A stretch of 64,000 nt of DNA. It comes from Flavobacteriales bacterium. GTDB taxonomy: Bacteria; Bacteroidota; Bacteroidia; Flavobacteriales; CAJXXR01. This document shows positions 6,525 through 54,781 of the stretch, one piece after another (within the stretch, counting starts at the first letter, position 1; each line of letters starts with the position of its first letter). The DNA is taken from NCBI GenBank assembly GCA_965243605.1, contig CBDEVQ010000092.1, forward strand, positions 48,208 to 112,207, read 5' to 3'. Made by a program: the position numbers and the translations under genes. The notes under the pieces are model-generated. The model ran no database searches. It saw only the letters and a list, made by a program, of their open reading frames with translations, and was not told the DNA's origin.

Positions 6525-6541
6525 TTAACAATTAGAGCGTT

Positions 6542-8461: not shown

Positions 8462-8478
8462 TTAACAATTAGAGCGTT

Positions 8479-10371: not shown

Positions 10372-10388
10372 TTAACAATTAGAGCGTT

Positions 10389-12269: not shown

Positions 12270-12286
12270 TTAACAATTAGAGCGTT

Positions 12287-14182: not shown

Positions 14183-14199
14183 TTAACAATTAGAGCGTT

Positions 14200-16113
14200 A
14201 TGAGAATACTAACCATAATAAGTTATTTATTTTATTTATGTATTAGTTTGAATGGGAATAGCCAAACCATCACGGTTCAGAATTTAGACGATTCTGGGGT
14301 TGGTTCTTTACGCGATGCTATTTCTAATGCCAATTCAGGCGATACCATCCGTTTTAACCCTATGTTAATTGCTCAAGGGAGTGATACTTTAGTATTAGAT
14401 ACAGTAATAAGTATTGACAAAGATTTAGTGATAAAAGGGCTTTATGATAGCGAGGATACCTTGTTTATGTCTGCATTAGATAATCAGAATTTGTTTTTCA
14501 TAGATAGTGTTGAAAGTATGGTTATGGATAGTTTAGTTTATCATATTGGCTTAATAAATACTTTTACAAGTTCCGATTTATTTCGGGTGCGTAATTCAAA
14601 CGTTCAAATATATAATTCAATATTTTTGGGGCATAGAGATGAAGTATTATCTTTTTGGCAATCGTCTTTAGAAATTTCAAATTGTAAGTTTATTAGTTTA
14701 GAGAGTTTATATTCGAGTTCTATTATTATATTTTCAACGAATGGGGATGTGCCAAGAGAGCTTAGGGTTATTAATTCTGAATTTGAATTTAATAATACTC
14801 TCACTTCTAAAGTTATTATTAGAACTGGTGGTGATAAAAGTAATAATCTTATTTATTTTAAAAACGCCTATTTTTCTAATATCAAGACTTTGATTTATGG
14901 CCACAATACTATTGATATTTCTAATTGTACTTATGAAAATGCTCATATACAAACAGGTGAACCTTCAGTTGGGTTTGCATTTATTAGAGATATTACATTA
15001 ACTGCAAAATCATCAACTTTTACTATTACTGACACTAATCAAGTCCAAAATACAATTTTATGTATAGGAACACCTTATGGACCTATTGAACCTGTTCCTT
15101 TAGATGTCCTTGAGTTAAATTTAATAAATAGTACGTTTAATGGTGGAATTTACGAAGACGTTATTTATGGAACTGGTTATGATAGTAATTATTTGGATTA
15201 CTTCGGTCCCGATTTAGATGAACTAAAAATAACAAGTTGTATTTTTAATGATATTAATGGCTTTAATGAATTACCTATTGACTCTTCAGGTGGATATAAC
15301 TTATTTAGTTTTCCTCAAAGCATAGGATTAGATTCAACAGACCAAGCTAATGTTCTGGTGTCTGATATTAACTTGGGGCCCTTACAAAACAATGGAGGGT
15401 ATACACCTACACATCTACCAAACTACCAATCTTTAGCGTTTAATTCGGGTAATCCGAACGACACAAGCTTTGCCCAAAACGGAACCATCATACAACGCCG
15501 AGATATAGGAGCTGCAGAAATACAAGCTGTCCTAACCATAGACACAACAGACTATTGCGGTACATTCTATAATTGGCGAGCAGACACCCTTACCGAAACA
15601 GATATTCATTTTGATATTGAAGAATCTACTACAGGAGGGTACGATAGTGTTTTTGCCATAGATTTAACCTTAGATTATATTGATGCTCTAGCCATAAGTG
15701 ATGGAGGCGAATTAACAGCCAATAGTTCTGATGCGACCTACCAATGGATGGATTGTTCAACCCATTTACCATTGTTTGGTGAAACTAACCAAACCCTTAC
15801 ACCCAGTATAGCGGGAACCTATGCGGTTGTTGTTTCCAATGGAATTTGTACCGATACTTCGGCCTGTGTATTTATCGATAATTTGAGTGTAGAAGAGCAG
15901 GTGCAATCCTTTGTATTTGTAAAGAATCATGTTTTGTATTTTAACGGGTTAGAAAATGCAGAGTTTAACATCTATAATAGCCTTGGGCAGAATATTTTAA
16001 GCGGCAATGTAAAATCCGGAGAAATAAACCTTTCAAACTTCCCAAATGGACTGTATAGCATTCAATTTAAAAATGCCACTATGGTTAGATCTATAAAATT
16101 TGTATTAAATTAA
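14200..16113 (+). CDS. Array copy A5 (signal a, core class IV, CTD alpha)
   Basis: 637 aa. The core is homologous to B1/B3. The C-terminal ~305 aa differ from A4 at only ~3 residues. Confidence 0.9.
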   Translation: MRILTIISYLFYLCISLNGNSQTITVQNLDDSGVGSLRDAISNANSGDTIRFNPMLIAQGSDTLVLDTVISIDKDLVIKGLYDSEDTLFMSALDNQNLFFIDSVESMVMDSLVYHIGLINTFTSSDLFRVRNSNVQIYNSIFLGHRDEVLSFWQSSLEISNCKFISLESLYSSSIIIFSTNGDVPRELRVINSEFEFNNTLTSKVIIRTGGDKSNNLIYFKNAYFSNIKTLIYGHNTIDISNCTYENAHIQTGEPSVGFAFIRDITLTAKSSTFTITDTNQVQNTILCIGTPYGPIEPVPLDVLELNLINSTFNGGIYEDVIYGTGYDSNYLDYFGPDLDELKITSCIFNDINGFNELPIDSSGGYNLFSFPQSIGLDSTDQANVLVSDINLGPLQNNGGYTPTHLPNYQSLAFNSGNPNDTSFAQNGTIIQRRDIGAAEIQAVLTIDTTDYCGTFYNWRADTLTETDIHFDIEESTTGGYDSVFAIDLTLDYIDALAISDGGELTANSSDATYQWMDCSTHLPLFGETNQTLTPSIAGTYAVVVSNGICTDTSACVFIDNLSVEEQVQSFVFVKNHVLYFNGLENAEFNIYNSLGQNILSGNVKSGEINLSNFPNGLYSIQFKNATMVRSIKFVLN

Positions 16114-16126
16114 TAATTAAAACGTT

Positions 16127-18040
16127 ATGAGAATACTAACCATATTAAGTTATTTATTTTGTTTAGGTATTAGTTTTAATGGGAATAGCCAAACCATCAC
16201 GGTTCAGAATTTAGACGATTCTGGGGTTGGCTCTTTACGTGATGCTATTTCTAATGCCAATTCAGGCGATACCATCCGTTTTAATCCCATGTTAATTGCT
16301 CAAGGGAGTGATACTTTAGTATTAGATACAGTAATAAGTATTGACAAAGATTTAGTGATAAAAGGGATTTATGATAGCGAGGATACCTTGTTTTTGACTT
16401 GTATTAATAATCAAATGTTTTTTTTAATTGAAAGTATTGAGCTTTCAATGGATAGTATGATTTTTACATCTGCGTATTATAATTATTCAAATACATATTT
16501 TCTATATTTAAGAAACTCTGAAGTAAATATTTTAAATTCAAAATTCTTAGATTTTTCAGAAACGGTTCTATCTTCAGAACAATCGAATTTAACTATTAAT
16601 AATAGTTCATTTTTTTGTGACAGCTTATATTCACATTATCCTTTGGTATACCTAACTCAAGGTGATACGTTAAGAAAACTAAAAATTATAAAGTCAAAGT
16701 TTTTAATAAAGGAAAAGAATACAGTTGGTATAGTAGTTAGAACAGCTGGAAATAAGGAGAATAATAAGGTGATTATTCAAGATTCATATTTTGAAAATTT
16801 TGAAACATTAATATATGGTCATAACACCATAGATATTCAATATTCAACATTTAATAATTCACTAATTAAAACGGGAGAGCCTTATGTGGGGTTTGCATAT
16901 ATTAGAGATATTACATTAACTGTAAAATCTTCAACCTTTGCAATTACAGATTCTAATCAAGTTCAAAATACGATTTTATGTATTGGTACACCTTATGGAC
17001 CTATTGAGCCAGTTCCTTTAGATACTCTGAAGTTAAATTTTACAAATTGTACGTTTAATGGAGGTCTTTATGAAGATACTCTTTATGGGAACTTTACTGA
17101 TAGTAATTATTTGGATTATTTCGGCCCCGATTTAGATGAACTAAAAATAACAAGTTGTATTTTCAATGATATTAACGGATTTAACGAATTGCCTATTGAC
17201 TCTTCAGGTGGATATAACTTATTTAGTTTTCCTCAAAGCATAGGATTAGATTCAACTGACCAAGCTAATGTTCTGGTGTCTGATATTAATTTGGGGCCCT
17301 TACAAAACAATGGAGGGTATACACCTACACATCTACCAAACTACCAATCTTTAGCGTTTAATTCGGGTAATCCTAACGATACCATTTCTGCTCAAAATGG
17401 AGCCATTATACAACGTAGAGATATTGGATCAGCTGAAATACAAGCTATACTTACTGTAGATACTACTGAATATTGTGGCGAATTTTATGATTGGAGAGGG
17501 CAAATGTTAACCGAATCAGCTATCTATTCAGATATAGAAGTATCTACAACAGGATTAGATAGTGTTTTTGCCATAGATTTAACCTTAGAGTATTTAGATG
17601 CCCTAGCCATAAGTGATGGAGGCGAATTAACAGCCAATAGTTCTGATGCGACATACCAATGGATGGATTGTTCAACCTATTTACCATTGTTTGGCGAAAC
17701 CAACCAAACCCTTACACCCAGTATTGCGGGAACCTATGCGGTTGTTGTTTCCAACGGAATTTGTACCGATACTTCGGCCTGTGTATTTATCGATAATTTG
17801 AGTGTAGAAGAGCAAGAAGAATATTATGTTTTTATAAAAGATAATGTACTTCATCTTAATGGGATTAGTAGTATCAAAATAGATTATATTATTTATAACA
17901 GTTTAGGACAAAAGGTACTTCACTCAAATACCTCACAAGAAAAACAAGACCTCTCTTATTTAGAGTCAGGTGTCTATTATATTAGATTAATATCTGATAA
18001 AGTGAATGATAAAAAGTATAATAAATTTATTATTAAATAA
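16127..18040 (+). CDS. Array copy A6, last gene of block A (signal a, core class V, CTD gamma)
   Basis: 637 aa. The core segment TQGDTLRKLKIIKSKFLIKEKNTVGIVVRTAGNKENNKVIIQDSYFENFETLIYGHNT is shared with B6. The CTD ...DLSYLESGVYYIRLISDKVNDKKYNKFIIK differs from alpha and resembles the CTD of the 18529..23949 gene. Confidence 0.9.
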   Translation: MRILTILSYLFCLGISFNGNSQTITVQNLDDSGVGSLRDAISNANSGDTIRFNPMLIAQGSDTLVLDTVISIDKDLVIKGIYDSEDTLFLTCINNQMFFLIESIELSMDSMIFTSAYYNYSNTYFLYLRNSEVNILNSKFLDFSETVLSSEQSNLTINNSSFFCDSLYSHYPLVYLTQGDTLRKLKIIKSKFLIKEKNTVGIVVRTAGNKENNKVIIQDSYFENFETLIYGHNTIDIQYSTFNNSLIKTGEPYVGFAYIRDITLTVKSSTFAITDSNQVQNTILCIGTPYGPIEPVPLDTLKLNFTNCTFNGGLYEDTLYGNFTDSNYLDYFGPDLDELKITSCIFNDINGFNELPIDSSGGYNLFSFPQSIGLDSTDQANVLVSDINLGPLQNNGGYTPTHLPNYQSLAFNSGNPNDTISAQNGAIIQRRDIGSAEIQAILTVDTTEYCGEFYDWRGQMLTESAIYSDIEVSTTGLDSVFAIDLTLEYLDALAISDGGELTANSSDATYQWMDCSTYLPLFGETNQTLTPSIAGTYAVVVSNGICTDTSACVFIDNLSVEEQEEYYVFIKDNVLHLNGISSIKIDYIIYNSLGQKVLHSNTSQEKQDLSYLESGVYYIRLISDKVNDKKYNKFIIK

Positions 18041-18097
18041 TATGAAATAAAAAACTATGAAATTCTTTGACACAGATAGCAATTAAAACCAACAAGA

Positions 18098-18410
18098 GTG
18101 ATTCTCGATACATTTTTATTTCTCTGTCGTTCAATAAAACCACTCGAACAGACAGATTAAAAACAATAGTCGTTAAAATCACTCTAATGTTTGAGTTATA
18201 GTAGACATTCAGCGTGATTCTCGATACATTTTTATTTCTCTGTCGTTCAATAAAACCACTCGAACAGACAGATTAAAAACAATAGTCGTTAAAATCGCTC
18301 TAATGTTTGAGTTATAGTAGACATTCAGCGTGATTCTCGATACACTTTTATTTCTTTGTGGTTCAATAAAACTACTCGAATCGACAGGTAGTTGAAAACT
18401 AGACTTAGCC
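18098..18410. repeat. 116-bp direct tandem repeat: two near-identical units, a diverged partial third unit, and a degenerate partial unit just upstream
   Basis: The unit start gtgattctcgataca recurs at 18098, 18214 and 18330, giving a 116-bp period. Units 1 and 2 differ at one base that I saw (atcActc versus atcGctc). Each unit holds the hairpin CTGTCGTTC-aataaaaccactc-GAACaGACAG. Confidence 0.9.
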
Positions 18411-18528
18411 TGATTTATCCTACGTTCCAATTATTTTTCTGCTTTAAATCTTATTTATTAAATGTATTCAGTACGTAAATGGTGTGTTGCCATTTACGAT
18501 TATTATATCAATTTAAATTAATAACAAA

Positions 18529-21500
18529 ATGAAGATCAAAAAAGAACTCATTTTAATGCTATGTTTTGTAATGGGAAGTACCCACAGTATAGCACAAACC
18601 AGTACAACCTTATCCTACAATGGTAGTGATGAAGTGATTAAAAACCCTGAGCGCGGGTTAAGTTATAAAGCAGGGTATGTCGATTTATTTGTCGATGGGT
18701 ATTCTTATGATGGAGCTGTATCCTATCAATGGACTCATGAATTTCCTAACACAGCAAATACAACTCCACCAAGTTTTATTTCACGGTTTAGGAAAGATGC
18801 AGGAAATCACATACAAGAATTGCCAATTGGGTATCAATTTAAATCTACAGCACCTGATGGATTAATTACAGTGGATTCAGATTTAGATTTACCATTACAA
18901 GGGAATGATGAGTTACAAATTAGTTTTCCAAATCCTATGAATTCGAGTTATGATAATAGTTCTGATTTAGTGATAATTCATTATACAGATAATACAGCTA
19001 ACTCTAGAACAGTAAAATATAAAGCATTTCCAAGCGGAGTAGCAGGAAACTATAATGGGGGCTATGGGGATTTTGTTGCACCAGGTAATAATACTATATT
19101 TTCTAAAATAAACATTAGGAATATATCTGGTATTGGTGGACAAATTCAATCATTTTATGTTTTTCAAAATGATAATATTGCTGGTAATGCACCAATAGAA
19201 ATAGACATGAACGAACCGGTTATTTTAGAGTTAAGGTCGGATATCGAAGCATTTACGATAAACCACATAGACCGTTCAGGTGTTTTAGAAAATCGTATAG
19301 AATGTTCATCGCCACATATTGAACAAGCTGCTGACCAATTGAACAATTTTGAGGTTCGTACAGAGTTGTCATATAACCAAATACCTTTAGATATAAGTAC
19401 AGGAAGTTTAAGTACACCGTTTGGGAATCAGATAACGTATAACAACTCTAACCACAGCTTAAATATTACCGATGCTTTTTTTGATGCCCAAACCTATCAG
19501 CAAGCCAGTAATAACAATATTGAGTTAGACCAATGTTATATAGAAGAAAATGGTATCTCTTTAGTTGAACTTGAAGAGTATATTCATTTTTCAGAAGATA
19601 ATATTACGGCATCCTCGCCTCAATACCAATTAGAAACGGCAAGTGTTAATCGTACAAACAATGCGTTTAATCAAATTAAAAATCACGGATTAAAAGCCCA
19701 TCAGGTTACCAATTCAGATTTTAAGATGACGGCAAATAATCATATCTATAATGTGCCAGACGATGAACATTTCACGTATTTACAAAACATAATGGATGAA
19801 ACCAATACTGAAATCTATTCAGGTAATAATAGTCTTATCGCATTAAATACATTGGGGTGGATAAAAGACCAAGAAGATGCTAGTTTATATCGTCTTTCTC
19901 CAACATGGTTAAAAACATCAAAAGATAAGCATTACCTACATTCTGGTCAAGATGCATATTATGGTGAGTTTTTACCCAATGAAGAAAACACTCTACGTTC
20001 TAGCCACCAAAGGTCTTTATTTAGATACTCAGCAGCTGCATCTAACCCGAACTTTACAGGAAACGGATTTAACTCTAGTGGTATTGCAGCAGATGTAAAT
20101 ATTCAGCACTATCAGGAAACAGTCATGAAAAAAGTAAAAAACTATTTTCCTAATAAAAAAATGCTAACCGATATGGTTGTGGCATGGGAACATAAGTTTA
20201 CCTATCCACAAAACGGAGGAACCTATGACGATGCTGGAGAAGATGAGTTTGATGTAAACCCAAACCTTGGATATTACGATGATATGTTTGCCACAACCTA
20301 TGAGTATTTAGGAACTATTTGTGATGAACCACAATTTCATTCAGTTTCAACAGATTTTACATCTGATGGTAAAAAAGATTTATTCGTATTAGGAAAGTAT
20401 AGCGATAATTTTTGGATGCATGCTGATATGCCTTTATACTTTGACGATGCAACTTTTGGACAATCTTTTGGGGCAATGTCTAGCAACTGGACAAATAATG
20501 GACAGTTTGATTACGAAGCTCTTAAGGGAATGCTTACAGCATCGGATGAAGAGCAAAACCCATTTTTAGCAGCAAAAAAATTATTCCGTTTTAACTATAC
20601 CTCTTTTGATGTAACGTATAACAACTCAGAAACAATAGGGAAAAATATTTTTGAATTTGTAGAGCCAAACGGAAATGGAGCGATTGATAAATGGAAAAGC
20701 ACAGCAATAACACAGGCTGATGCTGATCAATACCAATTACCATATTCAACAGGATATTTTACACATGATAATAAATCGGTGTTCGATTATATTCGTGACC
20801 ATTTGGGGTATCGTTTAGAACTGCAGAACTTAGAAACAGAAATACAAGGAAATAATCTAACCGCAAAATTCCATATTCAAAATAAAGGATTTTCAGCACC
20901 TAAAAACCCAAGACAAATTTATGCGGTGCTTTTAGATGAGCAAGGACAACAAGTGCAACAACTACCTGTGAATATAGATGCTAATGAGTGGTTATCATGG
21001 ACAACCGATGCAAATTTAGATATTAAAAAAAATGATATAAACGGAACAAATTATACCGACTATACGTTAGAGGATGATTTTGACCCTATTAATTACAATA
21101 CCCATACAGTTCAAGCGACCTTTGATATGTCAGGTTTAACAACCTATGCTACATATTCTATAGCCTTATGGATGCCAGACCCCTCGGCAGATTTAAACAC
21201 TGCATCTAACCAAGTGGATTATGCTGTTAAATTAGCTAATAGACCAATTTCTATTGGTGCTCGTGGAGAAAATATTGTAGCGAGTTTTAAACGAGGTGTA
21301 AATCAAATGAATTTACCATCTAAATATATCTCTGCAAATACCTTAATAATCAATCAAAATGCTACATGGGCGTCTTTAATAGAACATAATAGAAATATTA
21401 CTATTCCTAATGGAAGAACACTTACCATTACCGGAACCCTTAAAATGCCGCAAGGCACAAAAATTCAAGTTCTAGAGGGAGGAAAACTAATTGTAAACGG

Positions 21501-23949
21501 AGGAACCATAACAAGTAATTGTGATGCGCCTTGGCTAGGGATAGATGTATTCGGTCATGAAGAGTTAAACCAAACTGCTGCCAGCGGACAAGGTGAAGTT
21601 GTACTCAAAAACAATGCCCGAATAGAATATGCTGTAGATGGTGTTGCCTTAATTGGGCATACTCAAAATGGAGACATTGCCTGGGGAACATCAGGAGGGA
21701 TTTTGTTAGCCGAAAACACAACCTTTTATAATTGTAGACGAGGTATAGAATTTATGGCATATACCAACTATAATACAACCTATACGCAAGAGCGAAGAAA
21801 TAAAGGCGTTATAAATAATTGTACGTTTCAATTTACCGATGCGTTTAATGACCTATATGGATACAATACCTATGGAGAACATTATATACCGGTAGGAATA
21901 AGCATGTGGGAAGTAGACCGTGTATTGGTAAAAGGATGTACATTTATTAATGAAATGTCAACCTTTAACACAAGCAATTATGTCCATAATAAATACGATG
22001 GTTATGGAATTATTAGCGTAGATGCTTCTCCATTTATACAACCTGTTTATCCACCTGGACCTATGCCTGGATCTGCTACTGATTGGAATAATTTTGAAGG
22101 ATTTGATATTGGAGTATATAAAGTTAATTTAAATGGTGGTACAAGCCCGATTAAAATTAAGGATAACGATTTTAGTGAAAATCGTGCAGGAATCTATATT
22201 GAAAATAGCCCTTTTGCAACGGTGGTGTTAAACGATATTAATGTGCCAAATTTAAACTTCGGATCAACAACCGAAGAAATAAATGCTGTAGGTTTGTATT
22301 TAACAGGAGCATCTAATTTTGAAGTGGAAGACAATACCTTTATCGGAAATGGCGCTTCATCTACCCACCATGATGGGGGATTGGTTATCGAAAACAGCTA
22401 TGCAACGGGCCCTCATAACGAAACCGTTTATAACAATGCATTTGATGATTTAGGATTTGGATTTTTAGCCTACGGCGAAAATGGAGATACCTATAACGAT
22501 AATGGCGTACCAACGTCTCGTGGATTAGAAATGGGATGTAATGATTTTGGACAAAATGATAACAATTATCAAGATTGGTATATCCATAATGGAGCATCTA
22601 TAAGCCCTGTACAAGGTTCAGGAAGTACACCAACAGGAAACCGTTTTTCAGATGACCCAATCACAACAGACAACCACGGACATATTTTTATTGGTGGTAC
22701 TTTTGAAATTACCGAGTATTTCCGTTTTGATCCCTATGAACATGACCCATCTGAATCTGATAATGCAAAAGTAGCCGTTACAAATACAGGGGCTTCATAC
22801 TCAGAAAGTCAAAGCTGTTCGTCTAACTTTGCATTAAGTGAGGATATTACCGAAGGAGATTTAAATAATCATTTTTCAGATCATGAACTTTTGAAATATA
22901 AACTATTTCAATTAAAAACGAGTTATAAAAACATTTTAAATGGAGGGGTTAAACCTGAAATTATGGATGTGTTACTGGATGCAAACAAAACCTCTCAAGA
23001 AGTAAGAGATGAACTTGTTAATGGGTCTCCCTATTTGGAAGATGAGGTATTAATTGCCGCCATTAAAAGAGAAATTCCACTAACCCAATGGCACTTAACC
23101 GAAATTTTGGTTTGGAATTCTCGATTAAGCAGGGCGGTTATGAGTGCTTTATATGAAGCTCAACCATTAACGCCATATCAATATAATTTGGTTGTAAATG
23201 CAGACAATGGTTCTCAACGATTATTGCTTGAAATGGATATTCACGAAAAACAAATGGAGTTAGCAAGATTAAAATCTGACCATGTGTTAAAAGCATGGAA
23301 TAATGAGGATATTAACTTCTATGATGAAGTGATTAAAGTCTATAACAATGAAGAAACCGAATTTGCTGTAGGGCAATGTATAGAGGCTGAATTGTCAAAT
23401 AAAAACTATACAGGAGCAACATCTCGATTAAATACCTTTATGGGGTCGAATTCAAATGCAGATTTTCAAACCTTTTATGATTTCAAGATTAACTTAAAAC
23501 AAAGTGGTCGTAATTGGTTTCAATTATCTGATAATGAATTAAGAACTTTAGATGATTTACAGGCAAGTAATAATTCGTTTATTGCTCCTAAAGTAGAAAA
23601 CATTAAACGTTTTATTAGTGGAGATAATCAAACCTTTACGCCATTACCAATAGACTTAACACAGCCACAAACTAAAAAAGCCTATGTTGGTAAACCATCA
23701 GATGAATCCTTTGAGAATATCCTTGAAGTGAAATATCTAAGTGGAGAACAAGCTCTAATGTTTATTAGTACAAAGCCTGGAGCGAGATTTACTATTGTAA
23801 ATGCACTTGGTCAGGTTGTAGAAACTGGAGAAATGGCAAATGCTGTTGAATACAAAGATGTATCTTACTTACAATCTGGAGTATATCATATCCGATTAAC
23901 CTCGGATGAAGTAAATAAAACACAACACGATAAATTTGTTGTTCGATAA
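18529..23949 (+). CDS. 1806-aa secreted protein between the two array blocks: glycoside-hydrolase-like N-terminal region (DUF4874/DUF4832-like), beta-helix region, T9SS CTD
   Basis: Signal peptide MKIKKELILMLCFVMGSTHSIAQ. NPERGL near the N-terminus, and later DHLGYRLELQNLETEIQGNNLTAKFHIQNKGFSAPKNPRQIYAVLLDE, which is DUF4832-like as I recall that family. PbH1-like coils follow (TLTITGTLKMPQGTKIQVLEGGKLIVNGGTITS...). The C-terminus is FTIVNALGQVVETGE...VSYLQSGVYHIRLTSDEVNKTQHDKFVVR. Confidence 0.8.
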   Translation: MKIKKELILMLCFVMGSTHSIAQTSTTLSYNGSDEVIKNPERGLSYKAGYVDLFVDGYSYDGAVSYQWTHEFPNTANTTPPSFISRFRKDAGNHIQELPIGYQFKSTAPDGLITVDSDLDLPLQGNDELQISFPNPMNSSYDNSSDLVIIHYTDNTANSRTVKYKAFPSGVAGNYNGGYGDFVAPGNNTIFSKINIRNISGIGGQIQSFYVFQNDNIAGNAPIEIDMNEPVILELRSDIEAFTINHIDRSGVLENRIECSSPHIEQAADQLNNFEVRTELSYNQIPLDISTGSLSTPFGNQITYNNSNHSLNITDAFFDAQTYQQASNNNIELDQCYIEENGISLVELEEYIHFSEDNITASSPQYQLETASVNRTNNAFNQIKNHGLKAHQVTNSDFKMTANNHIYNVPDDEHFTYLQNIMDETNTEIYSGNNSLIALNTLGWIKDQEDASLYRLSPTWLKTSKDKHYLHSGQDAYYGEFLPNEENTLRSSHQRSLFRYSAAASNPNFTGNGFNSSGIAADVNIQHYQETVMKKVKNYFPNKKMLTDMVVAWEHKFTYPQNGGTYDDAGEDEFDVNPNLGYYDDMFATTYEYLGTICDEPQFHSVSTDFTSDGKKDLFVLGKYSDNFWMHADMPLYFDDATFGQSFGAMSSNWTNNGQFDYEALKGMLTASDEEQNPFLAAKKLFRFNYTSFDVTYNNSETIGKNIFEFVEPNGNGAIDKWKSTAITQADADQYQLPYSTGYFTHDNKSVFDYIRDHLGYRLELQNLETEIQGNNLTAKFHIQNKGFSAPKNPRQIYAVLLDEQGQQVQQLPVNIDANEWLSWTTDANLDIKKNDINGTNYTDYTLEDDFDPINYNTHTVQATFDMSGLTTYATYSIALWMPDPSADLNTASNQVDYAVKLANRPISIGARGENIVASFKRGVNQMNLPSKYISANTLIINQNATWASLIEHNRNITIPNGRTLTITGTLKMPQGTKIQVLEGGKLIVNGGTITSNCDAPWLGIDVFGHEELNQTAASGQGEVVLKNNARIEYAVDGVALIGHTQNGDIAWGTSGGILLAENTTFYNCRRGIEFMAYTNYNTTYTQERRNKGVINNCTFQFTDAFNDLYGYNTYGEHYIPVGISMWEVDRVLVKGCTFINEMSTFNTSNYVHNKYDGYGIISVDASPFIQPVYPPGPMPGSATDWNNFEGFDIGVYKVNLNGGTSPIKIKDNDFSENRAGIYIENSPFATVVLNDINVPNLNFGSTTEEINAVGLYLTGASNFEVEDNTFIGNGASSTHHDGGLVIENSYATGPHNETVYNNAFDDLGFGFLAYGENGDTYNDNGVPTSRGLEMGCNDFGQNDNNYQDWYIHNGASISPVQGSGSTPTGNRFSDDPITTDNHGHIFIGGTFEITEYFRFDPYEHDPSESDNAKVAVTNTGASYSESQSCSSNFALSEDITEGDLNNHFSDHELLKYKLFQLKTSYKNILNGGVKPEIMDVLLDANKTSQEVRDELVNGSPYLEDEVLIAAIKREIPLTQWHLTEILVWNSRLSRAVMSALYEAQPLTPYQYNLVVNADNGSQRLLLEMDIHEKQMELARLKSDHVLKAWNNEDINFYDEVIKVYNNEETEFAVGQCIEAELSNKNYTGATSRLNTFMGSNSNADFQTFYDFKINLKQSGRNWFQLSDNELRTLDDLQASNNSFIAPKVENIKRFISGDNQTFTPLPIDLTQPQTKKAYVGKPSDESFENILEVKYLSGEQALMFISTKPGARFTIVNALGQVVETGEMANAVEYKDVSYLQSGVYHIRLTSDEVNKTQHDKFVVR

Positions 23950-23963
23950 AATGTGATTAACTT

Positions 23964-24010
23964 GTAAGCCCAAGGTGTTTAAAACCTTGGGCTTACCTAT
24001 TTATTTATAA
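23964..24010 (+). terminator. Rho-independent terminator after the 1806-aa gene
   Basis: GTAAGCCCAAGGT-gtttaaa-ACCTTGGGCTTAC gives a 13-bp perfect stem, followed by ctatttatttat. Confidence 0.75.
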
Positions 24011-24034: not shown

Positions 24035-25948
24035 ATGAAATACCTTAATGTGTATAATTTTATATATTGTTTGTTTTTTACGCTCACACTAACAGGGCAA
24101 ACTATTACGGTTCAGAATTTAGATGATTCAGGAATCGGTTCTCTGCGTGATGCTATTGATATAGCAAACTCAGGCGACACTATACGTTTTAATCCAATGT
24201 TACTATCGCAAGGGAGTGATACTTTAGTTCTAGATACTGTTATTAATATTGATAAGGATTTAGTAATAAAAGGGCTTTATGATGATGAGGATACTTTGTT
24301 TTTGTCTGCTATTGATGACCAGATGATGTTTTCTATAGATAGTGTTGAAAATATAGTTATGGATAGTTTGACTTTTGATATTGGCTCAATAAATACTTTT
24401 ACCAATTACGATTTCTTTTGGGTGCGAAATTCAAATATACAAATGTATAATTCAATGTTTTTAGGGTATAGAGATGAGGTTTTAACTTTTTGGCAATCAT
24501 CTTTAGAGATATTAAATTGTAAATTTACTAGTGGAAATAGTTTATTTCCGAGTTCTGTTATTATATTTTTAACAAATGGAGATGTGTCAAGACAGTTTAG
24601 AGTTGTTAATTCTGAGTTTAGATTTAATAATCCTCTTACTTCTGCAGTTATCATTAAAACAGGTGGCAATAAAAATAATAACCATATTTATTTTGAAAAT
24701 AATTATTTCTCTAATATAGGTACTTTAGTTTATGGTCATAATATGATTGATATTTTTAATAGCACCTATGAAAATGCTCATATACAAACAGGAGAGCCTT
24801 CTGTAGGATTTGCTTACATTAGAGACATTACATTAAATATAGAATCTTCAACTTTTACAATTAATGATGTTAATCAAGTACAAAACACCATTTTATGCAT
24901 AGGAACTCCTTATGGACCTATTGAGCCTGTTCCTCTAGATGTTCTTGAGTTAAATTTCACAAATTGTACGTTTAATGGAGGGATATATGTAGATACCGTT
25001 TATAATAACTTTTATGATAGTAATTATTTGGATTATTTCGGTCCAGATTTAGATGAGTTAAAAATAACAAGTTGTATTTTTAATGATATTAACGGATTTA
25101 ATGAATTACCTATAGACACTTCAGGTGGATATAATCTATTTAGTTTCCCTCAAAATATAGGTTTAGATTCTACAGACCAAGCTGATATTTTGGTTTCAGA
25201 TATTAATTTAGGATCATTACAAAACAACGGAGGGTCTACACCTACGCATTTACCAAGTTTTCAATCTTTAGCCTTTAACTCTGGTAATCCAAACGATACA
25301 AGCTCTGCTCAAAATGGGGATATTGTTCAACGTAGAGATATAGGAGCTGCTGAAATACAAGCTGTATTAACAGTTGATACTACAGAATACTGTGGAGAAA
25401 CTTATCAATGGAGAGAAGAAATACTGACGGAATCTAATATTCATTTTGACGTGCAAGAATCAACTACAGGAGGATATGATAGTGTTTTTGTTCTGGACTT
25501 AACTTTAGATTACATTGATGCTATTGCCATTAGTGATGGAGGGGAATTAAAAGCAAATATTTCTGATGCAACGTATCAGTGGATAGACTGCTCAACCAAT
25601 CAACCTTTATTCGGAGAAACGAATCAGGTTTTAACACCAAGTACAGAGGGAATCTATGCTGTTATTGTTTCAAGTTCTATTTGTACAGACACATCAAGTT
25701 GTGTGTATATTAATAATATAGGGTTAGAAGAGCAAGAGAAACACTTTGTATTTGTAAAAGATAAAATACTCTATTTAAATAATGTTAATAGCTATACCGA
25801 ATATAGTGTTTATAATAACTTAGGGCAAATCGTGTTTAAATTCAATACAGTAAAAAAACAACAGGATATAACTCATTTAAATTCAGGTGTGTATTTTATT
25901 GAGTTTAAAGATGAGAATATTCAACCAGTGAAATTTATTTTGGATTAA
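24035..25948 (+). CDS. Array copy B1, first gene of block B (signal b, core class IV, CTD beta)
   Basis: 637 aa. The signal MKYLNVYNFIYCLFFTLTLTGQ is unique to this copy. The core is essentially identical to B3. The CTD is ...YSVYNNLGQIVFKFNTVKKQQDITHLNSGVYFIEFKDENIQPVKFILD. Confidence 0.9.
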   Translation: MKYLNVYNFIYCLFFTLTLTGQTITVQNLDDSGIGSLRDAIDIANSGDTIRFNPMLLSQGSDTLVLDTVINIDKDLVIKGLYDDEDTLFLSAIDDQMMFSIDSVENIVMDSLTFDIGSINTFTNYDFFWVRNSNIQMYNSMFLGYRDEVLTFWQSSLEILNCKFTSGNSLFPSSVIIFLTNGDVSRQFRVVNSEFRFNNPLTSAVIIKTGGNKNNNHIYFENNYFSNIGTLVYGHNMIDIFNSTYENAHIQTGEPSVGFAYIRDITLNIESSTFTINDVNQVQNTILCIGTPYGPIEPVPLDVLELNFTNCTFNGGIYVDTVYNNFYDSNYLDYFGPDLDELKITSCIFNDINGFNELPIDTSGGYNLFSFPQNIGLDSTDQADILVSDINLGSLQNNGGSTPTHLPSFQSLAFNSGNPNDTSSAQNGDIVQRRDIGAAEIQAVLTVDTTEYCGETYQWREEILTESNIHFDVQESTTGGYDSVFVLDLTLDYIDAIAISDGGELKANISDATYQWIDCSTNQPLFGETNQVLTPSTEGIYAVIVSSSICTDTSSCVYINNIGLEEQEKHFVFVKDKILYLNNVNSYTEYSVYNNLGQIVFKFNTVKKQQDITHLNSGVYFIEFKDENIQPVKFILD

Positions 25949-25988
25949 CAACAACTATTCATTTTTAAATTATATAAACCTAAACCGT

Positions 25989-27872
25989 ATGACAAGGGTT
26001 ATTAAATCTATTAGTTTTATATGTTGTTTGTTTCTTACGCTCACACTAACAGGACAAACCATAACCGTTCAGAATTTAGACGATTCAGGAATAGGTTCTC
26101 TGCGTAATGCTATTTCTAATGCCAATTCAGGCGATACCATACGTTTTAATCCCATGTTAATTGCTCAAGGGAGTGATACTTTGGTACTAGATACAGTAAT
26201 AAATATTGATAAAGATTTAGTGATTAAAGGTATTTACGATAATCAAGATACTTTATTCATGTCGATAAAGAATGACAAGCTATTATTTGCTGTAGATTCT
26301 GTAAACGAAATAGTCTTTGATAGTTTAGTATTAATTTCCGATTCTAATTCAGTAATATACCCTTGGGGAACAAGTGCAATAGCTTTGAGTTATGTTAATT
26401 GTCAAATAAATAATTCATTATTTCTTGAGTTTACAAATAATCATATTTATTCGTGGGAATCCAATTTAAAAGTTAATAATTGTAATTTTTCTCATTATCA
26501 CCCTTATTCTAGTTTAATTTTTTTTGATACCTCAGGGGACTCAATTCAGAACTTGGAATTATCGAATGTAAATGTTAAGAGTTATACTAATCTAAGTTTT
26601 GGATTTGCTATGAGAACAGAAACATCAACTCAACTAGAAAAAATTAATATATTCTTTAAAAATTCTTATTTAAAGAATACAAAATCTTATTTTAATGGAA
26701 ATATAAACATTGATATTCTCAATAGTACTTTTGAAAATTCAATAATGGAATTAGGAGCTGAATATACTTCATCAGAAGCAACAGATTCAAAAATTATAGC
26801 AGAGATACAACAATCTACATTTACGGGAGATGTTAATGGAAATACTATTTTATGTTTAGAGCCTCAAACAACAACACCTCTTTTGATTGATTTTAAATTA
26901 AGATTGAATAATTGTACATTCAATGGAGGGAGTTATGATACAGAATCTTCCATTGATTATTTTGGAGAAAGTATAGATTCATTAAGTATAACAAGTTGCA
27001 TATTTAATGATATTAACGGATTTAACGAATTACCTATAGATTCATCAGGAGGATATAATCTATTTAGCTTTCCTCAAAGTATAGGCTTAGATTCTACAGA
27101 CCAAACCAATGTTTTGGTTTCAGATATTAATTTAGAACCACTACAAAACAACGGAGGATTTACACCTACGCATGTACCAAGTTATCAATCTTTAGCTTTT
27201 AACTCCGGTAATCCAAACGATACAAGTTTTGCTCAAAATGGAGCTATTATTCAACGTAGAGATATTGGAGCTGCTGAAATACAAGCTACTCTTACCATAG
27301 ACACTGTAGAGTATTGTGGAGAAGACTACGATTGGAGAAATGAAACACTTACGGAATCTAATATACACTTTGATGTTCAGGAATCTACCACAGGAGGATA
27401 TGATAGTGTTTTTGCTTTAGATTTAACCTTAGATTACATGGATGCTCTAGCCATTAGTGATGGGGGAGCCTTACAGGCCAATATTTCTGATGCAACATAC
27501 CAATGGATGGATTGTTTAACCCATTTACCATTGTTTGGCGAAACCAACCAAACCCTTACACCCAGTATAGCGGGAACCTATGCCGTTGTTGTTTCTAACG
27601 GAATTTGTACCGATACTTCGGCCTGTGTATTTATCGATAATTTGAGTGTGGAAGAGCAGGTGCAATCATTTGTATTTGTAAAGAATAATGTTTTGTATTT
27701 TAACGGGTTAGAAAATGCAGAGTTTAACATCTATAATAGCCTTGGGCAGAATGTTTTAAGCGGCAATGTAAAATTCGGAGAAATAAACCTTTCAAACTTC
27801 CCAAATGGACTGTATAGCATTCAATTTAAAAATGCCACTATGGTTAGATCTATAAAATTTGTATTAAATTAA
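25989..27872 (+). CDS. Array copy B2 (signal c, core class VI, unique and most divergent, CTD alpha)
   Basis: 627 aa. Signal MTRVIKSISFICCLFLTLTLTGQ, shared with B5. The core has no close partner in the window. DYFGESIDSLSITSCIFNDINGF is shared only with B6. Confidence 0.9.
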   Translation: MTRVIKSISFICCLFLTLTLTGQTITVQNLDDSGIGSLRNAISNANSGDTIRFNPMLIAQGSDTLVLDTVINIDKDLVIKGIYDNQDTLFMSIKNDKLLFAVDSVNEIVFDSLVLISDSNSVIYPWGTSAIALSYVNCQINNSLFLEFTNNHIYSWESNLKVNNCNFSHYHPYSSLIFFDTSGDSIQNLELSNVNVKSYTNLSFGFAMRTETSTQLEKINIFFKNSYLKNTKSYFNGNINIDILNSTFENSIMELGAEYTSSEATDSKIIAEIQQSTFTGDVNGNTILCLEPQTTTPLLIDFKLRLNNCTFNGGSYDTESSIDYFGESIDSLSITSCIFNDINGFNELPIDSSGGYNLFSFPQSIGLDSTDQTNVLVSDINLEPLQNNGGFTPTHVPSYQSLAFNSGNPNDTSFAQNGAIIQRRDIGAAEIQATLTIDTVEYCGEDYDWRNETLTESNIHFDVQESTTGGYDSVFALDLTLDYMDALAISDGGALQANISDATYQWMDCLTHLPLFGETNQTLTPSIAGTYAVVVSNGICTDTSACVFIDNLSVEEQVQSFVFVKNNVLYFNGLENAEFNIYNSLGQNVLSGNVKFGEINLSNFPNGLYSIQFKNATMVRSIKFVLN

Positions 27873-27885
27873 TAATTAAAACGTT

Positions 27886-29799
27886 ATGAGAATACTAACC
27901 ATATTAAGTTATTTATTTTGTTTATGTATTAGTTTTAATGGGAATAGCCAAACCATCACGGTTCAGAATTTAGACGATTCTGGGGTTGGCTCTTTACGTG
28001 ATGCTATTTCTAATGCCAATTCAGGCGATACTATACGTTTTAATCCAATGTTACTATCGCAAGGGAGTGATACTTTAGTTCTAGATACTGTTATTAATAT
28101 TGATAAGGATTTAGTAATAAAAGGGCTTTATGATGATGAGGATACTTTGTTTTTGTCTGCTATTGATGACCAGATGATGTTTTCTATAGATAGTGTTGAA
28201 AATATAGTTATGGATAGTTTGACTTTTGATATTGGCTCAATAAATACTTTTACCAATTACGATTTCTTTTGGGTGCGAAATTCAAATATACAAATGTATA
28301 ATTCAATGTTTTTAGGGTATAGAGATGAGGTTTTAACTTTTTGGCAATCATCTTTAGAGATATTAAATTGTAAATTTACTAGTGGAAATAGTTTATTTCC
28401 GAGTTCTGTTATTATATTTTTAACAAATGGAGATGTGTCAAGACAGTTTAGAGTTGTTAATTCTGAGTTTAGATTTAATAATCCTCTTACTTCTGCAGTT
28501 ATCATTAAAACAGGTGGCAATAAAAATAATAACCATATTTATTTTGAAAATAATTATTTCTCTAATATAGGTACTTTAGTTTATGGTCATAATATGATTG
28601 ATATTTTTAATAGCACCTATGAAAATGCTCATATACAAACAGGAGAGCCTTCTGTAGGATTTGCTTACATTAGAGACATTACATTAAATATAGAATCTTC
28701 AACTTTTACAATTAATGATGTTAATCAAGTACAAAACACCATTTTATGCATAGGAACGCCTTATGGACCTATTGAGCCTGTTCCTCTAGATGTTCTTGAG
28801 TTAAATTTCACAAATTGTACGTTTAATGGAGGGATATATGTAGATACCGTTTATAATAACTTTTATGATAGTAATTATTTGGATTATTTCGGTCCAGATT
28901 TAGATGAGTTAAAAATAACAAGTTGTATTTTTAATGATATTAACGGATTTAATGAATTACCTATAGACACTTCAGGTGGATATAATCTATTTAGCTTTCC
29001 TCAAAGTATAGGCTTAGATTCTACAGACCTAACCAATGTTTTGGTTTCAGATATTAATTTAGAACCACTACAAAACAACGGAGGATTTACACCTACGCAT
29101 GTACCAAGTTATCAATCTTTAGCTTTTAACTCCGGTAATCCAAACGATACAAGTTTTGCTCAAAATGGAGCTATTATTCAACGTAGAGATATTGGAGCTG
29201 CTGAAATACAAGCTACTCTTACCATAGACACTGTAGAGTATTGTGGAGAAGACTACGATTGGAGAAATGAAACACTTACGGAATCTAATATACACTTTGA
29301 TGTTCAGGAATCTACCACAGGAGGATATGATAGTGTTTTTGTTCTGGATTTAACTTTAGATTACATTGATGCTATAGCCATTAGCGATGGTGGAGCCTTA
29401 CAAGCCAATATTTCTGATGCAACATACCAATGGATGGATTGTTCAACCCATTTACCATTGTTTGGCGAAACCAACCAAACCTTTACACCCAGTATAGCGG
29501 GAACCTATGCGGTTGTTGTTTCCAATGGAATTTGTACCGATACTTCGGCCTGTGTATTTATCGATAATTTGAGTGTAGAAGAGCAGGTGCAATCCTTTGT
29601 ATTTGTAAAGAATCATGTTTTGTATTTTAACGGGTTAGAAAATGCAGAGTTTAACATCTATAATAGCCTTGGGCAGAATATTTTAAGCGGCAATGTAAAA
29701 TCCGGAGAAATAGACCTTTCAAACTTCCCAAGTGGACTGTATAGCATTCAATTTAAAGATGCCACTATGGTTAGATCTATAAAATTTGTATTAAATTAA
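27886..29799 (+). CDS. Array copy B3 (signal a, core class IV identical to B1, CTD alpha); a five-piece mosaic
   Basis: 637 aa. Going 5' to 3', it matches A6, then B1, then B2, then B4, then A2/A3 (see findings). Confidence 0.9.
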   Translation: MRILTILSYLFCLCISFNGNSQTITVQNLDDSGVGSLRDAISNANSGDTIRFNPMLLSQGSDTLVLDTVINIDKDLVIKGLYDDEDTLFLSAIDDQMMFSIDSVENIVMDSLTFDIGSINTFTNYDFFWVRNSNIQMYNSMFLGYRDEVLTFWQSSLEILNCKFTSGNSLFPSSVIIFLTNGDVSRQFRVVNSEFRFNNPLTSAVIIKTGGNKNNNHIYFENNYFSNIGTLVYGHNMIDIFNSTYENAHIQTGEPSVGFAYIRDITLNIESSTFTINDVNQVQNTILCIGTPYGPIEPVPLDVLELNFTNCTFNGGIYVDTVYNNFYDSNYLDYFGPDLDELKITSCIFNDINGFNELPIDTSGGYNLFSFPQSIGLDSTDLTNVLVSDINLEPLQNNGGFTPTHVPSYQSLAFNSGNPNDTSFAQNGAIIQRRDIGAAEIQATLTIDTVEYCGEDYDWRNETLTESNIHFDVQESTTGGYDSVFVLDLTLDYIDAIAISDGGALQANISDATYQWMDCSTHLPLFGETNQTFTPSIAGTYAVVVSNGICTDTSACVFIDNLSVEEQVQSFVFVKNHVLYFNGLENAEFNIYNSLGQNILSGNVKSGEIDLSNFPSGLYSIQFKDATMVRSIKFVLN

Positions 29800-29816
29800 T
29801 TAACAATTAGAGCGTT

Positions 29817-31712: not shown

Positions 31713-31752
31713 CAACAACTATTCATTTTTAAATTATATAAACCTAAACCGT

Positions 31753-33657: not shown

Positions 33658-33674
33658 TTAACAATTAGAGCGTT

Positions 33675-51046: not shown

Positions 51047-51229
51047 AGAATAGCAGGAATACAAATTCCTGTTATTTATATCTAATTGCTTATTGTATTA
51101 ATAGGTTGTGGTATATGCGAATATTAATGGGATATAAGAATCTGAATGCGTTAGTGTTATTTTTATCTTAAATTGCAGATCAATCATTACAATCATTATA
51201 TATTTGTGCCATTAATAGGATTCTTTATT

Positions 51230-54775: not shown

Positions 54776-54781
54776 AACAAA

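What the first reader, a model, noticed from the sequence alone, without database searches (positions are those of the whole stretch)
18529..23949. A 1806-aa glycoside-hydrolase-like / beta-helix T9SS protein sits exactly between the two blocks
The only non-family gene inside the 29-kb locus has three parts. The N-terminal region resembles DUF4874/DUF4832-type glycoside-hydrolase-like proteins (NPERGL...; GYRLELQNLETEIQGNNLTAKFHIQNKGFSAP). A long PbH1-like beta-helix follows. The gene ends in a T9SS CTD related to the gamma type. Its position, six copies on either side, suggests one of two histories: the array was split by or grew around it, or a functional partnership exists (for example carbohydrate processing plus a panel of beta-helix binders or lyases).
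Basis: partly seen in the sequence, partly recalled or inferred. Interest (0 to 1): 0.55.

Follow-up and report, generated by a model that had tools for sequence, protein, structure and literature searches.

The report
Secreted sugar-enzyme-like protein on a stalk
This gene encodes a large surface protein of a Flavobacteriales-type bacterium: a much-altered glycoside-hydrolase-like head on a reusable beta-helix/helical "stalk" ending in a type IX secretion tag, sitting as its own transcription-like unit inside a changeable array of unrelated surface-protein genes. It is a new variant of known kinds, not a new system.

Summary
ORF 18529-23949 encodes 1806 aa and lies between two blocks of six 626-639-aa paralogs.

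The protein has at least five parts:
- a signal peptide;
- a divergent DUF4874/DUF4832-type GH-like head (aa 24-920). Pfam detects only DUF4832. A profile-profile alignment covers the whole canonical family once a ~280-aa insertion after strand beta1 is removed;
- a right-handed beta-helix (aa ~937-1360), supported at fold level only, by AlphaFold2 and Foldseek;
- a type A T9SS CTD.

The beta-helix and alpha domain form one ~800-aa module. In other Bacteroidota T9SS proteins this module sits behind S8 subtilase, esterase, BNR/sortilin or reprolysin heads, so it probably acts as a generic stalk.

Catalytic competence of the head is unproven. One candidate Glu lies in a remodelled loop and the other is Asp. 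The barrel is nevertheless the most constrained region (omega 0.05-0.07).

A family copy follows the gene in four to five close relatives (80-91% identity), usually as a single copy. It does not in the 54% and 37% relatives. The gene has its own long upstream region and a conserved terminator hairpin. The array therefore changes size around a resident gene, and an obligate partnership is not supported.

The parts
18041..18528 (+). 488-nt upstream intergenic region, the longest gap in the array. It holds a 116-bp tandem repeat x2.5 (18098-18387) and a hairpin at 18474-18498 just before the start codon.
   Evidence: 93% conserved in L007, which has about 1.5 repeat copies. No Bacteroidetes TAnnTTTG box found.
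18529..18597 (+). Sec-type signal peptide, aa 1-23 (MKIKKELILMLCFVMGSTHSIAQ). The A-Q cleavage context is conserved in orthologs.
   Evidence: Read from the sequence. No signal-peptide predictor was run.
18598..18696 (+). Head, first barrel strand, with the invariant KNPERGL motif (aa 38-44), which matches the canonical NPxRG of DUF4874.
   Evidence: omega 0.01-0.08.
18697..19533 (+). ~280-aa lineage-specific insertion (aa 57-335) after beta1. It is beta-rich, matches no family, and is the most variable part between close relatives.
   Evidence: Removing it gives an end-to-end hhalign alignment to canonical proteins. 66% aa identity to L007 against 92% for the barrel. No Pfam hit. The AF2 model is unreliable here.
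19534..20808 (+). Rest of the TIM-barrel-like catalytic-type domain (aa 336-760), with a ~55-aa insertion in the beta4 loop. Candidate carboxylates are E480/E486 and D633. It ends in the invariant RDHLGYR motif (aa 756-762).
   Evidence: hhalign prob 100%, E 2.4e-43. Residue mapping. omega 0.05-0.07.
20560..21240 (+). Pfam DUF4832 (PF16116) match, aa 678-904, profile positions 58-216 of 216. It overlaps the end of the barrel and the C-terminal beta-sandwich (aa ~761-920).
   Evidence: E 6.2e-24, 85.4 bits, cut-off 29.2.
21337..22608 (+). Right-handed parallel beta-helix (aa ~937-1360), the first half of 'module B'.
   Evidence: AF2 pLDDT mostly 80-94. The best full-length Foldseek hits are all beta-helix proteins, with E 3e-3 or weaker. 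Weak NosD and para_beta_helix hits.
22852..23619 (+). All-alpha domain (aa 1442-1697), the second half of module B. No known family or structure matched.
   Evidence: AF2 predicts 14 helices with pLDDT ~60-89. Homologous to the same region of P0009, P0010 and P0201-P0209.
23728..23949 (+). T9SS type A C-terminal sorting domain (aa 1734-1806) and the stop codon.
   Evidence: TIGR04183 28.4 bits against cut-off 23. The profile hits solved CTDs, 8glk_D at 1.4e-6. The AF2 beta-sandwich matches the PorZ, mirolase and NucA CTDs.
23964..23996 (+). Terminator-like hairpin (13-bp stem, 7 G-C pairs) followed by a T-rich tract, directly after the stop codon.
   Evidence: The intergenic segment is 98.6% identical in L007, L008 and L009.
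6542..18040 (+). Upstream block of six paralogs (c1-c6), spaced 13-17 nt apart. Each carries a choice-of-anchor Q domain and a T9SS CTD.
24035..35588 (+). Downstream block of six paralogs (c7-c12), spaced 13-40 nt apart, followed by Rrf2, RIC and NorB genes as in relatives.

Best explanation
The gene encodes a type IX-secreted protein with a distal head on a proximal stalk, probably attached to the cell surface.

Export (inferred from established T9SS biology): a Sec signal peptide takes it to the periplasm. The type A CTD takes it through the T9SS, where the CTD is normally removed and the protein is attached to the surface or released.

Head (aa 24-920): homology to the DUF4874/DUF4832 family is shown. 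That family has a TIM barrel plus a C-terminal beta-sandwich, and one member hydrolyses the Pel exopolysaccharide. Here the head carries a variable ~280-aa inserted domain and a rebuilt beta4 loop. I infer that it binds an extracellular polysaccharide, and probably cleaves one, with a specificity different from canonical members.

Stalk (aa ~937-1697): recurrence is shown. The beta-helix plus helical module also occurs in other Bacteroidota T9SS cargo behind S8 subtilase, esterase, BNR/sortilin and reprolysin heads, or on its own. I infer that it is a substrate-independent presentation or folding scaffold, much like the beta-helical stem that carries protease heads in autotransporters.

Locus: the gene looks like a separate unit, with its own long 5' region and terminator. 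It is a resident member of a locus where T9SS cargo genes duplicate, are lost and exchange CTDs. The 6+6 arrangement is one state of an array that changes size around it.
For: Head homology: Pfam DUF4832 at E 6e-24. hhalign against canonical DUF4874+DUF4832 proteins gives prob 99.95%, E 1e-38 unspliced. With aa 57-335 removed it gives prob 100%, E 2.4e-43 over template positions 1-549. The bracket motifs NPERG and RDHLGYR, and many canonical invariants, are kept.

Family function: a DUF4832 protein, SIR_1591, is described as a TIM barrel plus DUF4832 domain, and the purified protein disperses Pel aggregates (PMC12345266).

Constraint: omega is 0.10-0.12 overall and 0.05-0.07 for the barrel.

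Stalk: 25-31% identity over ~700-800 aa to proteins with other heads. The AF2 model has pLDDT 72 and pTM 0.70. Foldseek returns beta-helix hits only for that part.

CTD.

Separate unit: 488-nt 5' region, conserved terminator hairpin, 13-40-nt spacing inside the blocks.

Locus dynamics: L007 reads [copy][same intergenic region][gene][terminator][copy][Rrf2-RIC-NorB]. L008/L009 read [gene][one copy][Rrf2...]. L003 reads [FtsX][gene][copy]. In L001 the gene is followed by the start of a copy at the contig end.
Against: Head: there is no direct DUF4874 hit. The AF2 model of the head failed (pLDDT 37), so the barrel is inferred from homology only. The canonical WGEWH Glu has no unambiguous counterpart, because hhalign and a bridged MAFFT alignment disagree. 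About nine canonical invariants are replaced. The DGE Glu is Asp here, and Lys or Arg in two related proteins. The canonical catalytic residues have not themselves been determined experimentally.

Stalk: the beta-helix hits have weak E-values, none at or below 1e-3. The stalk role rests on domain order and recurrence only.

Secretion: no T9SS machinery genes were identified in the window. Surface attachment versus release cannot be told apart.

Transcription: promoter and terminator calls are consensus matches. Their total counts in this region match the shuffled controls.
Confidence: 0.6

Rival explanations
1. The head is a pseudo-enzyme. It keeps the GH-like fold but has lost catalysis, and serves as a carbohydrate-binding or adhesive domain, so the whole protein is an adhesin like its beta-helix neighbours.
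For: The canonical invariant Glu of WGEWH is not recoverable in a bridged alignment. Y155, R268, H338, S343 and H346 are replaced. The DGE Glu becomes Asp, or Lys/Arg in P0053/P0054. The large inserted domain differs sharply between close relatives, as expected for a binding or antigenic surface. The neighbours are Pmp-like beta-helix proteins.
Against: The barrel is the most constrained region (omega 0.05-0.07). Clade-invariant carboxylates remain near the expected positions: E480, E486 and D/E633. Module B usually carries true hydrolase heads such as S8 and esterase.
Confidence: 0.25
2. The gene and the 630-aa family are an obligate functional pair (glycan processing plus a panel of beta-helix binders or lyases), and selection keeps them together.
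For: A family copy follows the gene in every close relative whose downstream DNA could be read (L001, L003, L007, L008/L009). Family copies P0019 and P0025 have the same longest-contig length (298,126 bp) as the 80% ortholog P0004. The gene's CTD is closest to that of the adjacent copy c6.
Against: All linked cases are one shallow clade (80-91% identity), so this can be simple inheritance. The 54% ortholog is followed by tandem copies of an unrelated 573-aa T9SS protein. The 37% relatives have no T9SS paralog array next to them. The gene has its own terminator and upstream region. The family shows no catalytic signature, only choice-of-anchor Q and distant Chlam_PMP/Beta_helix relatives. No SusC/D, transporter or glycan-metabolism genes lie in the window.
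Confidence: 0.15
3. A contiguous 12-copy array existed first, and the big gene (with its flanks) was inserted into it, splitting it 6/6.
For: Copies from the two blocks interleave in the tree (c6 with c12, c5 with c9 and c7, c3 and c4 with c11, c2 with c10). Several window copies have closer relatives in other genomes than within the window, so the paralog lineages are old. Base composition of the gene differs from the copies.
Against: L007 already has the same [copy][93%-identical intergenic region][gene][terminator][copy] frame and the same right-hand neighbours, with a single downstream copy. No mobile-element genes or target duplications flank the gene. Upstream neighbours differ among relatives while the gene-to-copy junction is constant.
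Confidence: 0.12

Closest known systems
DUF4874/DUF4832 proteins (Pfam PF16173 + PF16116), about 500 aa, e.g. Streptococcus intermedius SIR_1591 of Pel operons
   Same: Homologous over the whole catalytic-type domain and the C-terminal sandwich (hhalign prob 100%). NPxRG, RDHLGYR and many invariant residues are kept. Both are extracytoplasmic proteins aimed at extracellular polysaccharide.
   Different: NPxRG to DHLGYR spans 718 aa instead of ~330: a ~280-aa domain is inserted after beta1 and ~55 aa in the beta4 loop. There is no Pfam DUF4874 hit. The WGEWH Glu is not recoverable and several invariants are replaced. The head is fused to an ~800-aa stalk and a T9SS CTD. No Pel or other EPS genes are nearby.
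T9SS cargo with the same beta-helix + helical module behind S8 subtilase, esterase, BNR/sortilin or reprolysin heads (P0009, P0010, P0201-P0213, L011-L031)
   Same: The C-terminal ~800 aa are homologous at 22-31% identity, with the same order: head, beta-helix, helical domain, CTD.
   Different: The head here is GH-like rather than a protease. This fusion was found only in about seven sequences of one Flavobacteriales clade.
Autotransporter passengers with a catalytic head on a beta-helical stem (SPATE and subtilase autotransporters). Comparison from general knowledge, as an analogy only.
   Same: An N-terminal hydrolase head carried on a long right-handed beta-helix whose C-terminal end is nearest the outer membrane.
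   Different: A different secretion system (T9SS CTD instead of a T5SS beta-barrel). No sequence homology was shown. Module B has an extra helical domain.
Flanking 626-639-aa family (choice-of-anchor Q domain, T9SS CTD; distant relatives carry Chlam_PMP or Beta_helix repeats)
   Same: Shares the T9SS CTD, which is closest to that of c6, and probably a beta-helix fold class.
   Different: No full-length similarity. hhalign gives prob ~50%, driven by the CTD.

Membership tests
DUF4874/DUF4832 GH-like family (Pfam PF16173 + PF16116) | PF16116 (DUF4832) match above the gathering score | tested here: met
   85.4 bits against 29.2, aa 678-904, profile positions 58-216 of 216.
DUF4874/DUF4832 GH-like family (Pfam PF16173 + PF16116) | PF16173 (DUF4874) match above the gathering score | tested here: not met
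   No hit even at E<=10 on segments, nor in orthologs or intermediate relatives. Canonical proteins hit it at 1e-14 to 1e-38.
DUF4874/DUF4832 GH-like family (Pfam PF16173 + PF16116) | Profile-level homology across the DUF4874 region, including the beta1 NPxRG motif | tested here: met
   hhalign prob 100%, E 2.4e-43 over template 1-549 after removing aa 57-335. NPxRG is invariant in all 48 sequences aligned.
DUF4874/DUF4832 GH-like family (Pfam PF16173 + PF16116) | Canonical domain size (NPxRG to DHLGYR about 330 aa) | tested here: not met
   718 aa here. Intermediate relatives have 530-760 aa.
DUF4874/DUF4832 GH-like family (Pfam PF16173 + PF16116) | Family-invariant carboxylates (Glu of WGEWH; Glu of DGE). 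Their catalytic role is an inference. | tested here: inconclusive
   hhalign pairs the first with E480, while the bridged MAFFT alignment pairs it with K462. The second is D633, or E in the P0008 clade.
DUF4874/DUF4832 GH-like family (Pfam PF16173 + PF16116) | (beta/alpha)8 barrel fold and glycosidase activity | not testable with these tools
   The AF2 model of the head failed (pLDDT 37). No solved homolog by sequence. Activity needs biochemistry. No CAZy/dbCAN library was available.
T9SS type A CTD cargo (TIGR04183 / PF18962) | CTD model match at the extreme C-terminus | tested here: met
   TIGR04183 28.4 bits against 23. The Pfam model is below its gathering score (22.2 against 27). The profile hits solved CTDs at 1.4e-6. 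The AF2 sandwich matches PorZ, mirolase and NucA CTDs.
T9SS type A CTD cargo (TIGR04183 / PF18962) | N-terminal Sec signal peptide | tested here: inconclusive
   A typical n-h-c region with an A-Q site is visible and conserved. No predictor was run.
T9SS type A CTD cargo (TIGR04183 / PF18962) | T9SS machinery present in the genome; CTD-dependent export | not testable with these tools
   Only 64 kb are available. Many other CTD proteins lie in the window, which fits a T9SS organism.
Right-handed parallel beta-helix (PbH1 / Beta_helix PF13229 / NosD PF05048) | Sequence-model match above the curated cut-off | tested here: not met
   NosD 21.9 against 23.6 bits. TIGR03804 12.4 against 19.45 bits.
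Right-handed parallel beta-helix (PbH1 / Beta_helix PF13229 / NosD PF05048) | Predicted fold | tested here: met
   AF2 gives pLDDT 80-94 over most of aa 937-1360. All long Foldseek hits are beta-helix proteins with probabilities up to 1.0, but E is 3e-3 or weaker.
Right-handed parallel beta-helix (PbH1 / Beta_helix PF13229 / NosD PF05048) | Catalytic acidic cluster of beta-helix glycosidases or lyases | tested here: inconclusive
   Among 14 module B sequences the only invariant acidic residue in the helix is one Glu in a repeat motif. No active-site comparison was possible.
Flanking 626-639-aa paralog family | Full-length similarity and the choice-of-anchor Q domain | tested here: not met
   BLASTP finds similarity only in the last ~53 aa. 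hhalign gives prob 50%. No NF041518 hit in the big protein.

The most novel reading that the evidence does not exclude
The ~800-aa beta-helix plus helical module (aa ~937-1697) is a widespread Bacteroidota T9SS 'passenger stalk' absent from Pfam and NCBIfam. It would be the functional counterpart of the autotransporter beta-helical stem, presenting interchangeable hydrolase heads. This gene would be a rare case where the stalk captured a remodelled exopolysaccharide-hydrolase-like head with a hypervariable inserted domain. Its locus would be a hot spot where neighbouring T9SS cargo genes duplicate and homogenise their CTDs by gene conversion.
Probability: 0.35. Interest if true: 0.55.

Novelty: new variant of a known kind. 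Interest (0 to 1): 0.36.

Why it matters
- DUF4874/DUF4832 is a large and almost uncharacterised GH-like family. This clade shows how far the barrel can be rebuilt (two large insertions, altered conserved residues) while staying under strong purifying selection. It gives concrete residues to test.
- The analysis defines a recurrent ~800-aa C-terminal module of T9SS cargo that matches no Pfam or NCBIfam model here except weak sub-threshold beta-helix hits. Most of its partners are secreted proteases. This bears on how T9SS substrates are displayed.
- The locus is a clear example of copy-number change and CTD homogenisation among adjacent T9SS cargo genes.

None of this changes current concepts. 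It refines the annotation of a rare Flavobacteriales surface protein.

Tried and rejected
- AF2 of the head (aa 1-930) with a 5-sequence alignment gave pLDDT 37, so it was unusable and was not used for a fold search.
- Sequence searches of the PDB with the whole protein and with a canonical-family profile found no homolog.
- Pfam scans of segments, orthologs and intermediate relatives never hit DUF4874.
- The genome-collection scan found only one 37% relative, a Flavobacteriales MAG. The first metagenome scan, with head patterns, found nothing.
- Contig look-ups for P0001, P0004 and P0019 failed, so the context of the 80% ortholog and the source record of the window are unknown. The cluster look-up gave no names.
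- A search for the Bacteroidetes -7 box TAnnTTTG upstream of the gene found none. The sigma-70 scan was no better than shuffles.
- I tested whether the inserted domain or module B is a diverged family copy. hhalign gave prob 0.5% and ~50% (the latter CTD-driven), so this was rejected.
- I considered misassembly of a chimeric ORF and rejected it, because five independent assemblies have the same architecture.
- The literature search on DUF4874/DUF4832 gave only one functional study, on SIR_1591.
Full report
**Observation**

The window has a 1806-codon ORF at 18529..23949 on the + strand. Six ORFs of 626-639 aa lie upstream (6542-18040) and six downstream (24035-35588). All are on the same strand and 13-40 nt apart within each block. 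The quoted peptide motifs are present. The same full-length architecture is found in independent assemblies at 91, 87, 86, 84, 80 and 54% identity, so the ORF is real and not a chimera.

**Head (aa 24-920)**

- Pfam finds only DUF4832 (E 6e-24, aa 678-904, profile positions 58-216). DUF4874 is not found at any threshold in this protein, its orthologs or its nearest relatives.
- An exhaustive profile search found 529 relatives. About ten proteins of 840-1430 aa match profile positions ~350-940. Canonical ~500-aa proteins match mainly over positions ~690-840. Ten such canonical proteins were scanned, and all carry DUF4874 followed by DUF4832.
- Profile-profile alignment of the head against those canonical proteins gives prob 99.95%, E 1e-38. 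After cutting out aa 57-335 it gives an end-to-end alignment (prob 100%, E 2.4e-43, template 1-549), with KNPERGL on the canonical NPERGF.
However, the barrel is interrupted after its first strand by a ~280-aa domain of unknown kind.
- The distance from NPxRG to DHLGYR is 718 aa, against ~330 in canonical members and 530-760 in intermediate ones.
- A bridged alignment shows a further ~55-aa insertion exactly where the canonical family has its invariant G-x-W-G-E-W-H. hhalign pairs that Glu with E480, and MAFFT pairs it with K462, so its equivalent is unresolved.
- The second invariant Glu (DGE) is Asp here (HAD), Glu in the 37% clade, and Lys or Arg in two relatives. Nine or so other canonical invariants are replaced. 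NPxRG, W722, Y743, RDHLGYR, N785-G-F788 and others are kept.
- The catalytic role of these residues is my inference by analogy with TIM-barrel glycosidases. The literature held here gives no catalytic residues.
- The only functional study found describes a Streptococcus DUF4832 protein as a TIM barrel plus a seven-strand DUF4832 domain, whose purified form disperses Pel aggregates (PMC12345266).
- No solved structure is detectable by sequence, and my AF2 model of the head failed (pLDDT 37).
- Against orthologs, the barrel is the most constrained part (omega 0.05-0.07). The inserted domain is the most variable: 66% aa identity to L007 where the barrel is 92%.

**C-terminal half**

- BLASTP shows that aa ~907-1700 are 25-26% identical to the C-terminal parts of P0009 (S8 subtilase head) and P0010 (BNR/sortilin head).
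- The 37% relatives of the head (P0007, P0008) carry other C-termini. The protein is therefore a fusion of two independently mobile modules.
- A profile of this 'module B' retrieves proteins in which it is present whole, at profile positions 2-803. It stands alone, or sits behind S8, sortilin or reprolysin domains, and is followed by a T9SS CTD wherever the C-terminus is complete. Source names include Lentimicrobium and Lewinella.
- A metagenome scan gave 21 more loci. Of ten heads scanned, six are S8 subtilases and one is a DUF676/PGAP1-type esterase.
- AF2 on aa 921-1806 with a 14-sequence alignment gave pLDDT 72 and pTM 0.70. It predicts a long beta-rich solenoid (aa ~938-1352), a low-confidence linker, fourteen helices (aa 1442-1697) and a C-terminal beta-sandwich.
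- All long Foldseek matches are right-handed beta-helix proteins: phage tailspike depolymerases, RbmB lyase, polygalacturonases and NosD. Probabilities reach 1.0, but E is 3e-3 or weaker.
- The sandwich matches the PorZ, mirolase and NucA CTDs. Nothing matches the helical domain.
- Curated sequence models for beta-helix stay below their cut-offs. The CTD passes TIGR04183 and hits solved CTDs by profile.

**Neighbourhood and history**

- The 12 flanking paralogs are 58-85% identical and carry a choice-of-anchor Q domain and a T9SS CTD. Their distant relatives have Chlam_PMP or Beta_helix repeats.
- They share only the CTD with the big protein. Three CTD types exist. The big protein's CTD is closest to that of c6.
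- The two blocks are not separate clades. Several window copies have their nearest relative in another genome: c4 with L008dn at 84%, c11 with a copy on the 298-kb contig at 83%, c6 with L003dn at 80%. The paralog lineages are therefore older than these genomes.
- L007 reads [641-aa copy][intergenic region 93% identical to 18041-18528][1807-aa gene][terminator][630-aa copy][Rrf2][RIC][NorB], with the same right flank as the window.
- L008/L009 read [gene][one copy][Rrf2...].
- L003 reads [aconitase][FtsX][gene][copy].
- In L001 the gene is followed by the start of a copy at the contig end.
- The 54% ortholog is followed by two tandem copies of an unrelated 573-aa T9SS protein whose CTD is nearly identical to the gene's own CTD.
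- The 37% relatives lie among sulfatase, Ldh and alpha-2-macroglobulin genes. The one genome-collection hit is of this type, and its neighbourhood was not examined.
- The gene has a 488-nt upstream region with a 116-bp tandem repeat, and a 13-bp-stem hairpin with a T-tract right after the stop. The short segment holding that hairpin is 98.6% conserved in three relatives.
- No glycan-uptake or EPS genes occur in the window.

**Interpretation**

Most likely (0.6), this is a T9SS-exported, probably surface-attached protein. A divergent polysaccharide-directed GH-like head, with a variable inserted domain, is held on a generic beta-helix/helical stalk.

Four things are shown:
- homology of the head to the DUF4874/DUF4832 family;
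- recurrence of the stalk module behind other heads;
- the identity of the CTD;
- purifying selection on the whole gene, and conserved synteny in close relatives.

Three things are inferred: hydrolytic activity, the stalk role and surface attachment.

The main rival is a non-catalytic, lectin-like head (0.25). An obligate partnership with the flanking family (0.15) and an insertion that split a pre-existing array (0.12) are both less likely, for the reasons given above.

**Verdict**

This is a new variant of known kinds: the DUF4874/DUF4832 family, T9SS cargo and beta-helix proteins. Interest is moderate to low (0.36). The most useful by-products are the definition of the recurrent stalk module and the remodelled GH-like clade.

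Noticed in passing
window 18098-18387: A 116-bp tandem repeat, 2.5 copies at 95% identity, in the 5' intergenic region of the big gene. It is found nowhere else in the window. L007 has the same region at 93% identity with about 1.5 copies, so copy number varies between relatives. Its function is unknown.
   Followed up: partly
window 6408-6541: The 134 nt just upstream of the first paralog (c1) are 98.5% identical to the 3' end of a family CTD plus the 17-nt spacer. This is a remnant of a 'copy 0', which suggests that unequal crossing-over within the homogenised CTD/spacer sets the array boundary.
   Followed up: partly
window, 3' ends and spacers of the 12 paralogs (e.g. 8462-8478, 25949-25988, 16114-16126): The CTDs fall into three types. 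Copies c2, c3, c9 and c11 have identical last 75 aa although the proteins are only 70-78% identical overall. Spacers come in three matching forms (17, 40 and 13 nt). This points to concerted evolution (gene conversion) of the CTD and spacer.
   Followed up: partly
L004 7615-10204 (and L005): Next to the 54% ortholog lie two tandem copies of an unrelated 573-aa T9SS protein with near-identical N-terminal ~250 aa. The CTD of the complete copy is nearly identical to the CTD of the big gene beside it. This is CTD sharing between non-homologous neighbours.
   Followed up: partly
L007 1-192: The contig starts with the last 36 codons of a CTD almost identical to the big gene's own CTD, followed by the same terminator segment (90% identity), upstream of the family copy. 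It could be a second big-gene-like unit or an assembly effect at a repeat.
   Followed up: no
window 18697-19533 (aa 57-335), especially aa ~125-245: The inserted domain is mosaic among close relatives: 90-91% identical to L003 and L001 but only 66% to L007, with elevated dS. P0004 has a clearly different segment there. This suggests allelic recombination in a surface-exposed domain.
   Followed up: partly
window 123-6008: A 1961-aa T9SS protein with CUB, four PKD, HYDIN/VesB-like Ig, Reelin subrepeat-B and GEVED domains lies immediately upstream of the array.
   Followed up: no
window 51173-57475: A 1200-aa protein with a borderline Beta_helix (PF13229) hit is followed 7 nt later by an 897-aa protein with no family hit. 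They may be another surface-protein pair.
   Followed up: no
window 57816-58682: An IS3-type transposase ORF (HTH_21 plus rve integrase core) lies about 22 kb downstream of the array.
   Followed up: no
window 18001-24000 vs flanks: The big gene has a positive AT skew (0.07-0.135) and slightly higher GC (0.32-0.36). The paralog blocks have AT skew near 0 or negative and GC of 0.30-0.34.
   Followed up: no
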